Source: a virus (taxonomy: Duplodnaviria; Heunggongvirae; Uroviricota; Caudoviricetes). From it: a stretch of DNA of 11,785 bases. Positions within the stretch are counted from its first letter, which is position 1, and every line of letters begins with the position of its first letter. The stretch covers positions 1-11,785 of IMG/VR virus record IMGVR_UViG_2695420889_000011, one strand, 5' to 3'. Of the stretch, positions 1,871 to 4,844 are shown in pieces. The notes below the pieces were generated by a model, which was not told where the DNA came from, did no database searches, and was given only the letters and a program-made list of their open reading frames with translations. The position numbers were made by a program, and so were the translations under genes.

Positions 1871-4426
1871 ATGAGCAATAATTTGCAGGACATCCTCGCT
1901 GCCGCATCGGGGTATCAGTCCGTGACTTCAGAGCCAGCGCTCAATCTTAAAAGACCTAAAACGCTTGATGATTATCCTGTGATACCACCTGCATCAAAAA
2001 AAGTATCTGTTATTTCAAGTGACCTGACACTCCATATCGGTTTTGATACCGAATATGTTTTCAATCCTGAAACACAACAGAATGATATTCTGTCATATCA
2101 GAGTTATGTTGTCTTACCCGATAATACAGGTATATCGAACATTATCTATCCACCTGACTCACAGAAAAAATCCCGGCTGTCTTTTAAGAACTTTCTCTGT
2201 CAAACGATTACACCGCTTCTTGAAACGGGTGTGATTACAAAATGGCCCGGTATTATTAATATATATGCGCATTTCATTCGTGCGGATATCACCTCCTTTG
2301 CCAATTTCTGGTCAGACTACAAAATTCTTCTGAAAGGAATACGCGGTACTGTCAGCAGCTTCAAAAATCGTTACGGTATCGATTTTGATGAACAGCAGGA
2401 ACGTCGCGTAAAGACTGAACAGATAATGTTTGACAAACGAACTTCCCCTCCGCGTTGCAGTAACGTAGCTTTCATCGATACACTGCTTATCACTCCCGGG
2501 GGTATGGGTCTGGCTGAATGTGGTGAATTACTGGGTCTTCCCAAACTGACCATTCCTGCACCTTATTCCATAACCAATATGCGTGAATATCTTCTGGGCG
2601 ACAGAGCAGGGTTTGAAGCCTATGCTCTGCGGGATGCCGAGATTGCGGTTCGTTATGCTTTACAGGTTCGCAATTTTTGCGCCCGGGAGCTGATGATTGA
2701 TCGTGTCCCCGCCACCATCGGGGCGATGGCAGTTTCACGGTTCACCAAAACACTTAAAGAAAACAATATGTCTCCTGAAGTCTGCCTTGGGACACACATT
2801 AAAACCCGTGAACTCTGGCTCACGGAGAAACAGGCATTCCGGACGATTAAAAACCCCGCCAGTGTTCCTTCAAGAGAGCTGTTTGAAACGTTCCCGATCA
2901 ACTGTTACCACGGCGGACGCAATGAGTGTTTTATGATGGGGGTTACACCGTCTGATCACTGGTATGACTACGATCTGGCTGGAGCGTATACCACCGGGCT
3001 ATTAGATATCCTCATACCCGATTACGGAAACATCCGCCTCAGTAAAAATCCGGACGATTACTGTGGGCATGTAATGGGATTTGCGTTTGTCACATTTCAG
3101 TTCCCGGAATCAGTTCCCTATCCCAGCCTGCCGGTTCGGACCGATCAATATGGGTTATTCTTTCCATTAAGTGGCGAATCATGGGCAACGGCACCTGAAA
3201 TCGAACTTGCTCTGTCGCTCGGGGCAGAGATGACGATCCATAATGGGATCATCGTCCCCTGGATCTGTGACACCTCCCCACATAACAGCGAATCAACATC
3301 GGTGTTTCTTCCCTTTGTTCAACAGGTCCGTGAGAACCGTAATCGCCATATTAAAGGTTCTCTGGAGGAGAAATTCTGGAAAGAAATTGGCAACTCGCTT
3401 TATGGCAAACTTGCTCAGGGCCTTCGCGCCAAAACCGCCTTTGATACTGCCCGTGGATTAAACAGATCCCTCCCACCATCATCGGTTACTCAGCCATTCT
3501 TTGCTGCGCATGTGACGGGATTTATCCGCGCCGTTGTCGGGGAACTCATGAATGCTTTGCCTTCTGATTCATCGGTTGTCAGCGTCACAACCGATGGCTT
3601 TTTGACAAATTGCCCACTTAACAAGATAAACATGAGCGGTCCACTGTCTTCCCGCTTCCAGTCGCTGTGCGATATTGTTGATCCGGGTTCATCAATGTTG
3701 ACATGTAAGCATGAGGTCAGCCAGCTTATCGCCATGAAAACCCGGGGGCAGTTAACCTATAGAGCTATTCAGGGAAAACCTGTTGTTCATGCCAGGGCTG
3801 GCGTCAAACCTCCTGCCGATATTCCACGCAGTGACTATAACGACTATATGGTAGATCTTTACCTTAATCGTTTACCCGGTCAGACGTTATCCCGAAGTAC
3901 GTTGATATCAACGCGTGAGATGTGGCTGTCGGAAAGCGATCTGGTATCCCGGGAACAGGATATCCGTCTTAATCTGGAATTCGATTTCAAACGCCAGCCC
4001 GTACAGCCCGCCATGAATGAAGGGCATTTACTGATGTCTTCCCGCCCATGGGATAATATGGAAGAGGCTCTGCAGCAACGCTCTCTTTTCGACGACTGGC
4101 GGCAAACGCATACACTGAAGACCCTGGCTGACTGGGATGACTGGTGTGATTTTCTCTATTGCCGGACGGTGTTTTCTGATATGAAACTAAAAGTCGGAAG
4201 CAAACGTAGTGATGATATTTTAGTCAGACTATTTCTCCGGGCGCTGACTCAGTGCCAATGGGGGCTTATGCTGAAAGATAAAAAAAGTTATTCCTGTAAA
4301 GAGGTTGCTGAATGGCTGACGTCAGAAGGCTATTCAGTAACATGTCAAAAAGCACCTGCTGGATCTCCCGGGCCCGAAGGTCGCAGTAACGTATCTTCCC
4401 CAGACGAGGTTCAATGTATTGCGTGA
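1871..4426 (+). CDS. Family B DNA polymerase with 3'-5' exonuclease domain, piPolB-like (primer-independent PolB of pipolin-type elements)
   Basis: 851-aa ORF with SD GGAG 7 nt upstream. Ordered motifs: Exo I HIGFDTEY (D59, E61), Exo III-like YALRD (251-255), motif A-like DYDLAGAYTT (366-375), motif B KEIGNSLYGK (504-513, matching Kx3NSxYG), motif C-like VTTDGF (572-577), KTRG (623-626). The PolB call is strong; the piPolB subgroup assignment is from genomic context (recombinases, tRNA-derived att repeat) and memory. Confidence 0.8.
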   Translation: MSNNLQDILAAASGYQSVTSEPALNLKRPKTLDDYPVIPPASKKVSVISSDLTLHIGFDTEYVFNPETQQNDILSYQSYVVLPDNTGISNIIYPPDSQKKSRLSFKNFLCQTITPLLETGVITKWPGIINIYAHFIRADITSFANFWSDYKILLKGIRGTVSSFKNRYGIDFDEQQERRVKTEQIMFDKRTSPPRCSNVAFIDTLLITPGGMGLAECGELLGLPKLTIPAPYSITNMREYLLGDRAGFEAYALRDAEIAVRYALQVRNFCARELMIDRVPATIGAMAVSRFTKTLKENNMSPEVCLGTHIKTRELWLTEKQAFRTIKNPASVPSRELFETFPINCYHGGRNECFMMGVTPSDHWYDYDLAGAYTTGLLDILIPDYGNIRLSKNPDDYCGHVMGFAFVTFQFPESVPYPSLPVRTDQYGLFFPLSGESWATAPEIELALSLGAEMTIHNGIIVPWICDTSPHNSESTSVFLPFVQQVRENRNRHIKGSLEEKFWKEIGNSLYGKLAQGLRAKTAFDTARGLNRSLPPSSVTQPFFAAHVTGFIRAVVGELMNALPSDSSVVSVTTDGFLTNCPLNKINMSGPLSSRFQSLCDIVDPGSSMLTCKHEVSQLIAMKTRGQLTYRAIQGKPVVHARAGVKPPADIPRSDYNDYMVDLYLNRLPGQTLSRSTLISTREMWLSESDLVSREQDIRLNLEFDFKRQPVQPAMNEGHLLMSSRPWDNMEEALQQRSLFDDWRQTHTLKTLADWDDWCDFLYCRTVFSDMKLKVGSKRSDDILVRLFLRALTQCQWGLMLKDKKSYSCKEVAEWLTSEGYSVTCQKAPAGSPGPEGRSNVSSPDEVQCIA

Positions 4427-4844
4427 AACGCTGAACATCCTTATCCCAGGACTTTTTATGGCGTTTGATGAACGGAACATAGGTCTGGTGAAAAAACTCA
4501 CTAAGTGTTGGCATCGCACGATAATTATCGCGTTCTGCTTTAGGGTCATTTCCCAGTGCAATCGCCTCCTTGTGACGACGAGCTATCTGACGGGCTGTCC
4601 CCACATCGATTTCAGGGAATCTGCCAATACTGATACTTTTTTTGGTACCGTGGAATGTGTAGCGCAGGAGGAAACGTTTGTTACCCGTTCGACCTGAGAG
4701 ACATTTGAGGCCTATGACCTCGGTATCTGATACCTCAAGCTCTGTAGATCGGGTATCTGTGTTTGCCGGAAGGGCTTTGATGGATGAATTGGTGAATCGG
4801 AAGGATTTTTGCATATTTATCCTCATGTATCTGATTGATATCAT
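4266..4844 (-). pseudogene. P4/CP4-57-type integrase, N-terminal fragment only (arm-binding domain); truncated remnant
   Basis: The translation ...FRFTNSSIKALPANTDTRSTELEVSDTEVIGLKCLSGRTGNKRFLLRYTFHGTKKSISIGRFPEIDVGTARQIARRHKEAIALGNDP... matches the conserved N-terminal arm-binding pattern of P4-type integrases. Likeness fades after about residue 168 and the ORF stops at 192 aa, whereas intact proteins of this type are about 400 aa. The ORF overlaps the polymerase 3' end on the opposite strand (4266-4426). The likely true start is the internal Met at about 4814. Confidence 0.65.

What the first reader, a model, noticed from the sequence alone, without database searches (positions are those of the whole stretch)
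4266..4844. Antisense P4-type integrase remnant overlapping the polymerase 3' end: a recombination scar or element junction
Only about 165 N-terminal residues of a P4-type integrase are recognisable on the minus strand, and they overlap the last 30-55 codons of the polymerase ORF on the plus strand. Two genuine genes rarely overlap antisense by 80-160 bp. Either the polymerase C-terminal tail (low-complexity ...SVTCQKAPAGSPGPEGRSNVSSPDEVQCIA) is read-through into foreign DNA after a deletion or fusion, or the integrase was truncated by acquisition of the polymerase module. The breakpoint marks a boundary between two formerly separate elements.
Basis: seen in the sequence. Interest (0 to 1): 0.5.

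Follow-up and report, generated by a model that had tools for sequence, protein, structure and literature searches.

The report
Deletion scar inside a decaying pipolin
A single 5.8-kb deletion inside a known E. coli mobile element (a pipolin) joined the end of its DNA polymerase gene to the middle of its own integrase gene, so the odd antisense overlap is an ordinary, already described decay scar.

Summary
The minus-strand ORF holds the first 158 codons of a 399-aa tyrosine integrase (arm-binding domain only). The plus-strand ORF is a primer-independent PolB (piPolB) whose last 27 residues are antisense integrase sequence.

Both end at one junction, window 4341, with 1 nt shared. Compared with ETEC H10407, ECamp52 and B2C, 5,808 bp are missing. 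The lost stretch held the last 42 piPolB codons, a 108-aa orphan, a WYL regulator, DUF726, DUF2787, two small orphans and the integrase catalytic domain.

The identical junction occurs in 32 of 5,426 complete E. coli genomes, mostly O145:H28. About 260 further genomes carry the polymerase 3' end without the junction.

The lost piPolB tail is conserved in 29 diverged homologues, so the polymerase is damaged, not naturally short. Many carriers show further IS hits, frameshifts or truncations.

The two genes are core genes of the same element, not two formerly separate elements. Published pipolin surveys (Sci Rep 2020; NAR 2024) already describe this truncated, monophyletic subgroup, and PGAP annotates the integrase piece as a pseudogene. 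Low interest; already known.

The parts
1871..4426 (+). Chimeric piPolB ORF (851 aa). Native sequence runs 1871-4341 (residues 1-824). Positions 4342-4426 are 27 alien codons plus a stop, read from the antisense strand of the integrase gene.
   Evidence: The motifs FDTEY (D59/E61), D368, SVTTDG and KH-X8-KTRG are intact (definitions from PMC5695915). The native form is 866 aa (L004:4768-7368; P0001-P0120).
4341..4341 (.). Deletion junction. Homology to the polymerase side runs through 4341 and homology to the integrase side starts at 4341 (one shared C). 5,808 bp are missing relative to ETEC H10407 (L004 7239-13046).
   Evidence: The identical 80-nt junction is present in 32 of 5,426 complete E. 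coli genomes.
4266..4814 (-). Integrase pseudogene remnant. Native codons 1-158 occupy 4341-4814 (arm-binding domain plus part of the core-binding region). Positions 4266-4340 are 23 alien codons plus a stop, read antisense through the piPolB 3' end. The catalytic domain is absent.
   Evidence: The intact 399-aa homologue has Arm-DNA-bind_3 at 7-96 and Phage_integrase at 213-377. PGAP marks the remnant as 'incomplete; missing C-terminus'.
4815..4844 (-). In-frame upstream extension of the mechanical ORF (MISIRYMRIN). It is not part of the native gene.
   Evidence: The intact homologues and the PGAP annotation start at MQKSF.
4895..5635 (+). Conserved 246-aa orphan transcribed divergently from the integrase. 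It belongs to the att-proximal pipolin core.
   Evidence: No Pfam or NCBIfam hit. PHROG 29550, unknown function, E = 2e-178. It sits beside the integrase in every locus examined.
5801..5932 (.). Pipolin att direct-repeat copy. Positions 5878-5932 are the 3' 55 nt of tRNA-Leu (minus strand).
   Evidence: A second copy lies at the yecA end of the island (L001 432-563, L003 35629-35757). Sequence. ARAGORN finds no complete tRNA in the window.
1..249 (.). End of an IS3-family insertion sequence that removes the first ~131 codons of the second (IntP2-type) tyrosine recombinase.
173..985 (+). 5'-truncated IntP2-type tyrosine recombinase. The intact form is 376 aa in H10407 and PapRG-06-5.
1007..1008 (.). 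A second, 143-bp deletion that removes the upstream region and the first codons of the excisionase-like HTH_17 gene. Among the loci examined it is found only in the two O145-type loci (this window and RM10425-C1).
1183..1821 (+). 212-aa orphan immediately upstream of piPolB (pipolin core).
5933..11785 (.). Left end of a complete P2-family prophage integrated in tRNA-Leu between the pipolin and the intact tRNA gene. Its integrase is at 6039-7040 (-).

Best explanation
The window comes from a pipolin, a piPolB-encoding integrative element at the leuZ tRNA-Leu site, of the kind found in E. coli O145:H28. In an ancestor of this pipolin lineage, one illegitimate-recombination deletion of 5,808 bp removed everything between piPolB codon 824 and integrase codon 158. 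The two genes converge, so the deletion joined them tail to tail. Each reading frame now runs past the junction into the antisense strand of the other gene until a chance stop codon. That gives 27 alien codons for the polymerase and 23 for the integrase, and hence the 161-nt antisense overlap. The integrase remnant has no catalytic domain and cannot recombine. The polymerase keeps all catalytic motifs but has lost a family-wide conserved C-terminal helical segment. The element has also lost its WYL regulator, DUF2787, DUF726 and three orphans. In this strain an IS has also cut the second recombinase and a 143-bp deletion has removed the start of the excisionase-like gene. The element is therefore an immobilised, decaying remnant. 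Shown: the deletion, its exact ends, its single origin and the losses. Inferred: the illegitimate-recombination mechanism, and loss or impairment of polymerase function.
For: **The deletion and its ends**
- The junction maps to one base, and both flanks are collinear with undeleted loci in H10407, ECamp52 and B2C.
- The deleted interval encodes WYL/WCX/HTH, DUF726, DUF2787, orphans and the integrase catalytic domain.

**Single origin**
- The identical 80-nt junction occurs in 32 of 5,426 genomes. Other genomes with the polymerase side match only up to 4341-4342.
- 294 genomes carry the piPolB 3' region and about 490 carry the integrase region.

**Damage to the polymerase**
- The 866-aa form is the norm among close relatives.
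- 29 representatives at 29-48% identity align through the native tail. The shared motif is V[KR]NA.R..L....VP.T...[FY]P.F, with P860 invariant. The window's tail does not match it.
- An AlphaFold model of the native protein (pLDDT 86, pTM 0.84) places two confident helices, 825-833 and 846-858, in the lost segment. The fold is phi29-like PolB.

**Further decay among junction carriers**
- IS2 or IS3-family insertions, 5' truncations, 1-2 nt indels, and a 651-nt stump in C325.

**Recurrence and literature**
- Strain 1217KP lost the same interval independently, with an ISKpn26 at the site.
- PMC7385651 describes CC32 strains with an Arm-only XerC_2 and a truncated piPolB.
Against: - Nothing contradicts the deletion itself.
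- Loss of polymerase function is not shown. The catalytic motifs are intact and the 851-aa ORF is still open in many O145 genomes and in PapRG-06-5, so residual activity is possible.
- One shared base does not identify the molecular mechanism of the deletion.
- Many of the 32 carriers are clonal O145:H28, so counts of secondary disruptions are not independent.
Confidence: 0.95

Rival explanations
1. The junction is a boundary between two once-independent elements. A polymerase-carrying module inserted into, or recombined with, the integrase gene of a resident tRNA-Leu island and truncated it.
For: The same integrase plus 246-aa orphan occurs at tRNA-Leu in many genomes. In one search only 32 records also matched the polymerase part at the same place, so the integrase looks at first like part of a different island. 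The ET350 locus has different genes in the 8 kb beyond the integrase.
Against: In undeleted loci, piPolB and the integrase lie in one island bounded by 129-132-bp att repeats. The ET350 locus itself begins with the 3' end of a 2,601-nt gene, the length of a native piPolB. The published core synteny piPolB-WYL-DUF2787-IntSXT extends to Vibrio (PMC11551731). The polymerase is itself truncated at the junction and has lost a conserved tail. An insertion of an intact module would not cause that.
Confidence: 0.03
2. The fused arrangement is retained because the products work. The 851-aa chimeric polymerase is active. The arm-domain-only protein acts as a DNA-binding regulator or competitor at att arm sites. 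The deleted element can still move using the IntP2-type recombinase or a helper.
For: - Both ORFs remain open in O145, PS10-3 and PapRG-06-5. The integrase remnant is also open in CUVM53, where the polymerase is cut by IS903B.
- PapRG-06-5 has the junction with an intact IntP2-type recombinase and excisionase-like gene.
- Among carriers the island differs by 0.12-0.35%, while the adjacent core differs by 0.8-1.4%. The change begins just outside the tRNA cluster. The deleted form therefore entered different chromosomal backgrounds after the deletion.
Against: - At least 9 of 32 carriers have further disruptions of the polymerase.
- In this window the other recombinase and the excisionase-like gene are also broken.
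- The two integrase-remnant changes seen are both non-synonymous.
- Spread could equally be homologous recombination of the region.
- No expression data exist, and no promoter-like or terminator-like site lies near the junction.
Confidence: 0.1
3. The junction is an assembly or sequencing artefact.
For: None found.
Against: The identical junction is present in 32 independently assembled complete genomes from different laboratories, hosts and countries.
Confidence: 0.005

Closest known systems
Truncated enterobacterial pipolin subgroup (Mateo-Caceres and Redrejo-Rodriguez, NAR 2024, PMC11551731, Fig. 3B 'pipolin 2')
   Same: A deletion between the IntSXT-type integrase and piPolB, truncated recombinases, ISs near the IntP2-type recombinase, a monophyletic piPolB clade and a frequently cointegrated prophage at the same tRNA. 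All of these are seen here.
   Different: Nothing substantive. This work adds the base-level junction, the exact gene losses, and two further points. The prophage and the deletion occur independently: H10407 has the prophage without the deletion, while RM10425 and PapRG-06-5 have the deletion without the prophage.
CC32 (ST32/ST137) pipolins LREC247/250/251 (Flament-Simon et al., Sci Rep 2020, PMC7385651)
   Same: They are described as having an XerC_2 with only the Arm DNA-binding domain and a partially truncated piPolB, and as co-diverging with the host. The window comes from strain 99-3311, whose closest matches are O145:H28-type genomes.
   Different: The paper did not state, in the passages I read, that both truncations are the two sides of a single deletion.
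Complete E. coli pipolin (for example ETEC H10407, ECamp52; type element 3-373-03_S1_C2)
   Same: The same integration site (tRNA-Leu next to pgsA/uvrC), the same att repeat and the same core gene order. Identity is 98-99% across piPolB and about 97-98% across the integrase side.
   Different: The complete element has an 866-aa piPolB, a 399-405-aa integrase and the 5.8-kb core interval (WYL, DUF726, DUF2787, orphans).
Strain 1217KP pipolin with an ISKpn26 between piPolB and the integrase
   Same: It has lost the same interval and has a C-terminally truncated integrase.
   Different: It is an independent event: the IS is retained at the junction, piPolB is intact (866 aa) and about 287 integrase codons are kept.

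Membership tests
Pipolin (piPolB-encoding integrative element) | Encodes a piPolB | tested here: met
   ORF 1871-4426 is 98-99% identical at the DNA level to E. coli pipolin polymerases. Source names for close relatives include 'Primer-independent DNA polymerase PolB'.
Pipolin (piPolB-encoding integrative element) | Flanked by att-like direct repeats, one of which overlaps a tRNA gene (tRNA-Leu in E. coli) | tested here: met
   Window 5801-5932 includes the tRNA-Leu 3' part and is repeated at the yecA end of the island in L001 and L003. Only one copy lies inside the window.
Pipolin (piPolB-encoding integrative element) | Gammaproteobacterial core: IntSXT-type and IntP2-type recombinases, DUF2787, WYL gene, orphans (PMC11551731) | tested here: not met
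   The window has only truncated remnants of both recombinases. WYL, DUF2787 and DUF726 are absent because of the deletion. The core is complete in undeleted relatives, so this is a degraded member.
piPolB (primer-independent family B DNA polymerase) | ExoI D59/E61, PolA D368, PolC variant SxTTDG, KH-X8-KTRG (PMC5695915) | tested here: met
   All four motifs are found at the expected positions. They are invariant in the 31-sequence alignment.
piPolB (primer-independent family B DNA polymerase) | Protein-primed-type PolB fold | tested here: met
   The AlphaFold model of the native 866-aa protein has pLDDT 86. Its best PDB matches are phi29 DNA polymerase, E = 1e-16, TM 0.67 on the target.
piPolB (primer-independent family B DNA polymerase) | Conserved C-terminal segment (residues 825-866; motif V[KR]NA.R..L....VP.T...[FY]P.F) | tested here: not met
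   It is replaced by 27 unrelated residues in the window. It is present in 29 of 29 diverged homologues and in all 120 listed close relatives, which cover 100% of the query at 99-100% identity.
   Pfam PF13356: E = 7.7e-15 for the remnant and 2.8e-14 for the intact homologue.
   NCBIfam NF007246 (PRK09692) scores 26.6 bits against a cut-off of 434. The best phage integrases are below 30% identity. The published classification is IntSXT (PMC11551731), which I did not test with that classification's own models.
Functional tyrosine recombinase | C-terminal catalytic domain (Phage_integrase, with the catalytic Tyr) | tested here: not met
   The domain lies at residues 213-377 of the intact protein. 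The window copy ends its native sequence at residue 158/159.

The most novel reading that the evidence does not exclude
After losing the integrase thought to be the primary one (IntSXT type) and the WYL/DUF2787 core, the deleted pipolin still moved as an element between divergent E. coli backgrounds, using its IntP2-type recombinase or the integrase of a P2-family prophage that targets the same tRNA-Leu. The chimeric polymerase and the arm-only protein would retain some activity. The hint is that the island is 3-9 times less diverged than the adjacent core among carriers, with the switch near the tRNA cluster. PapRG-06-5 also carries the junction with an intact IntP2-type recombinase and excisionase-like gene.
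Probability: 0.15. Interest if true: 0.35.

Novelty: already known. Interest (0 to 1): 0.12.

Why it matters
It matters little beyond correct annotation. The 851-aa 'DNA-directed DNA polymerase' in O145:H28 genomes is a C-terminally damaged chimera. The overlapping 'Arm DNA-binding' ORF is the other side of the same deletion. Neither is a pair of overlapping genes or an element boundary. The lineage could serve as a natural knockout: it lacks the IntSXT catalytic domain, WYL, DUF2787 and the polymerase tail. That could help ask which pipolin core genes are needed for mobility and replication, a question the pipolin papers leave open.

Tried and rejected
- **Sequence search of PDB** with the native polymerase found nothing. 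The fold comparison was needed instead.
- **The search for homologous proteins** was swamped by 99-100% identical 866-aa proteins. It only showed that 866 aa is the norm. The 50%-cluster search was needed for diverged C-termini.
- **NCBIfam** gave no specific family for the remnant, the polymerase or the orphans.
- **tblastn of the intact integrase against phages** gave only hits below 30% identity and could not decide P4 versus SXT type.
- **The promoter/terminator scan** around the junction found nothing useful: 0 promoter-like sites, and 1 terminator-like site at 4977-4994, within chance expectation.
- **Repeats or microhomology at the deletion ends:** only one shared base was found, so slippage between repeats or att-like site-specific recombination is not supported.
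- **Prophage cointegration as the cause of the deletion** was rejected, because each occurs without the other.
- **Chance ORF or assembly artefact** was rejected.
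Full report
**What is in the sequence.** The window is 100% identical to E. coli strain 99-3311 (NZ_CP101310.1, 2071552-2083336, minus strand). Its closest relatives are O145:H28 genomes.

The two ORFs in the finding exist as described: 1871..4426 (+), 851 aa, and 4266..4844 (-), 192 aa. They overlap antisense over 161 nt.

The plus ORF is a family B polymerase with a weak Pfam DNA_pol_B_2 hit. The minus ORF has a clear Arm-DNA-bind_3 domain at E = 7.7e-15 and nothing else.

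**Where similarity ends.**
- A megablast of 3800-5200 against 5,426 complete E. coli genomes split exactly at window 4341. Thirty-two genomes match across the whole query. About 490 match only from 4341 rightward, where they carry an intact ~1.2-kb 'site-specific integrase' next to a 246-aa orphan and tRNA-Leu.
- The polymerase side up to 4340 is present in 294 genomes.
- In strain ECamp52 the two matches lie 5.8 kb apart in one island. ETEC H10407 and B2C have the same undeleted arrangement, together with the same downstream prophage as the window.

**The junction.** Direct comparison with H10407 gives these correspondences:

| Window | H10407 locus L004 |
|---|---|
| 1008-4341 | 3904-7238 |
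| 4341-10102 | 13047-18808 |

One C is shared, and 5,808 bp are missing.

- **Polymerase.** The window protein keeps residues 1-824 and then reads 27 codons of antisense integrase (CQKAPAGSPGPEGRSNVSSPDEVQCIA). The native protein is 866 aa and ends VTDVKNAVRAK...YPTFCLPA.
- **Integrase.** The native gene starts at the ATG at 4814. It keeps 158 native codons of 399 and then reads 23 codons of antisense polymerase.
- **Lost integrase domain.** The catalytic Phage_integrase domain (residues 213-377 in the intact protein) is gone.
- **Lost genes.** The missing interval encodes a 108-aa orphan, an HTH-WYL-WCX regulator, DUF726, DUF2787 and two more orphans.
- **Read-through.** Runs of 23-27 codons before a chance stop are ordinary, so the antisense overlap needs no special explanation.

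**Single origin.** The 80-nt junction sequence is 100% identical in exactly 32 of 5,426 genomes. Every other polymerase-bearing genome matches only to position 4341-4342. The carriers are mostly O145:H28, plus PS10-3, CUVM53, PapRG-06-5, GPEC1292, YJR, XPFI_3_2, ESDR8, C325 and others.

**Is the polymerase tail really foreign?** Yes.
- The 120 close relatives listed all cover 100% of the native 866-aa query at 99-100% identity. Most are 866 aa, a few 881-887 aa, and they come from E. coli, Citrobacter, Klebsiella, Enterobacter and Salmonella.
- In a search of 50%-identity cluster representatives, most full-length homologues at 30-50% identity align through query residue ~860-864.
- An alignment of 29 of these shows a conserved C-terminal pattern, V[KR]NA.R..L....VP.T...[FY]P.F, with P860 invariant and R833 in 25 of 29. 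The window's tail does not align to it.
- An AlphaFold model of the native protein (pLDDT 86, pTM 0.84) places two confident helices, 825-833 and 846-858, in the lost part. The break falls in the turn after helix 809-818.
- The overall fold is phi29-like PolB.
- The catalytic motifs that define piPolB are intact: D59/E61, D368, SxTTDG and KH-X8-KTRG (definitions in PMC5695915).

The enzyme is therefore damaged at a conserved C-terminal element. It is not demonstrably dead.

**Decay.** Junction carriers show further lesions in the polymerase:
- IS2 in ESDR8.
- IS3-family elements in RM12761, RM13516 and XPFI_3_2.
- 5' truncations in Z1323HEC0399, Z1323HEC0422 and CUVM53 (the last beside an IS903B).
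- 1-2 nt length changes in RM12275-C1 and RM8995-C1.
- A 651-nt stump in C325.

In the window itself an IS3-family element (1-249) removes about 131 codons of the second, IntP2-type recombinase. A separate 143-bp deletion at 1007/1008 removes the start of the excisionase-like HTH_17 gene. Many carriers are clonal, so these counts are not independent events.

**Same element, not two.**
- The undeleted island is bounded by 129-132-bp direct repeats. One overlaps tRNA-Leu and the other lies next to yecA.
- Mateo-Caceres and Redrejo-Rodriguez (PMC11551731) describe piPolB, an IntSXT-type integrase near the integration site, DUF2787 and a WYL gene as the conserved core of gammaproteobacterial pipolins.
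- Flament-Simon et al. (PMC7385651) reported CC32 strains (ST32/ST137, eae-positive) whose XerC_2 keeps only the Arm domain and whose piPolB is partly truncated.
- PGAP already flags the remnant as an incomplete pseudogene.

The finding is therefore a correct observation of a known feature.

**Mechanism of the deletion.** Only one base is shared at the ends and no IS remains, so I infer short-homology-independent illegitimate recombination. This is an inference. Strain 1217KP lost the same interval independently and has an ISKpn26 at the site, so the interval is lost recurrently.

**Prophage.** The window from 5933 onward is the left end of a complete P2-family prophage. It sits between the pipolin's tRNA-Leu 3' fragment (5878-5932) and the intact tRNA-Leu. 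The deletion and the prophage are independent: H10407 has the prophage without the deletion, while RM10425-C1, PS10-3, CUVM53 and PapRG-06-5 have the deletion without the prophage.

**One loose end.** Among carriers from different backgrounds (O145, PS10-3, CUVM53, PapRG-06-5), the island differs by 5-14 substitutions in 3.4-4.0 kb. The adjacent 7.4 kb of core (pgsA to dcyD) differs by 59-106. The change begins just beyond the tRNA cluster.

The deleted form therefore entered different chromosomes after the deletion. This could be by element transfer, since PapRG-06-5 still has an intact IntP2-type recombinase and excisionase-like gene. It could also be by homologous replacement of the region. 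I could not separate these two routes.

**Verdict.** The 'deletion with read-through' reading is right and the 'boundary between two elements' reading is wrong. The feature is already known and of low interest.

Noticed in passing
window 1-249 and 173-985: An IS3-family insertion sequence end truncates the pipolin's second (IntP2-type) tyrosine recombinase by about 131 N-terminal codons. The annotated 270-aa ORF starts inside the IS.
   Followed up: partly
window 1007/1008: A 143-bp deletion relative to H10407, ECamp52, PS10-3, PapRG-06-5 and 1217KP removes the upstream region and the first codons of the excisionase-like HTH_17 gene. Among the loci examined it is shared only with O145 RM10425-C1. 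The mechanical ORF 997-1182 is in a different frame and is meaningless.
   Followed up: yes
window 5878-5932 and 5933-11785: The 3' 55 nt of tRNA-Leu are followed directly by a complete P2-family prophage. Its genes include an integrase at 6039-7040, DUF2511, an HTH repressor-like gene at 8089-8493 and, beyond the window, a replication endonuclease. The intact tRNA-Leu lies at the far end of the prophage in strain 99-3311.
   Followed up: partly
window 4895-5635: A 246-aa protein sits next to the integrase in every locus examined. It has no Pfam or NCBIfam family and matches only PHROG 29550 (unknown function). It is a conserved pipolin core orphan of unknown role.
   Followed up: no
L007 (NZ_CM173879.1, strain 1217KP) 6601-8644: The piPolB-to-integrase interval was lost independently here, with an ISKpn26 at the junction. 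The polymerase is intact and the integrase is cut at about codon 287.
   Followed up: partly
L001, L005, L006, L010 (junction -2.4 kb to +9 kb): The deleted island is 3-9 times less diverged between carriers than the adjacent core genes, with the switch near the tRNA cluster. This suggests transfer of the deleted form between backgrounds.
   Followed up: partly
L005 (PS10-3) 6562-9126; also YJR, GPEC1292, CM196106: These carriers have a 9-nt in-frame insertion in the chimeric polymerase after residue 753, giving 854 aa. In PS10-3 the IntP2-type recombinase is annotated as two separate ORFs.
   Followed up: partly
native piPolB residues ~809-833 (L004:4768-7368): The conserved C-terminal segment looks like a helix-turn-helix in both the alignment and the model (helix 809-818, a turn with invariant G820, helix 825-833). 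The deletion breaks it in the turn. No role for this segment was mentioned in the paper passages I read.
   Followed up: partly
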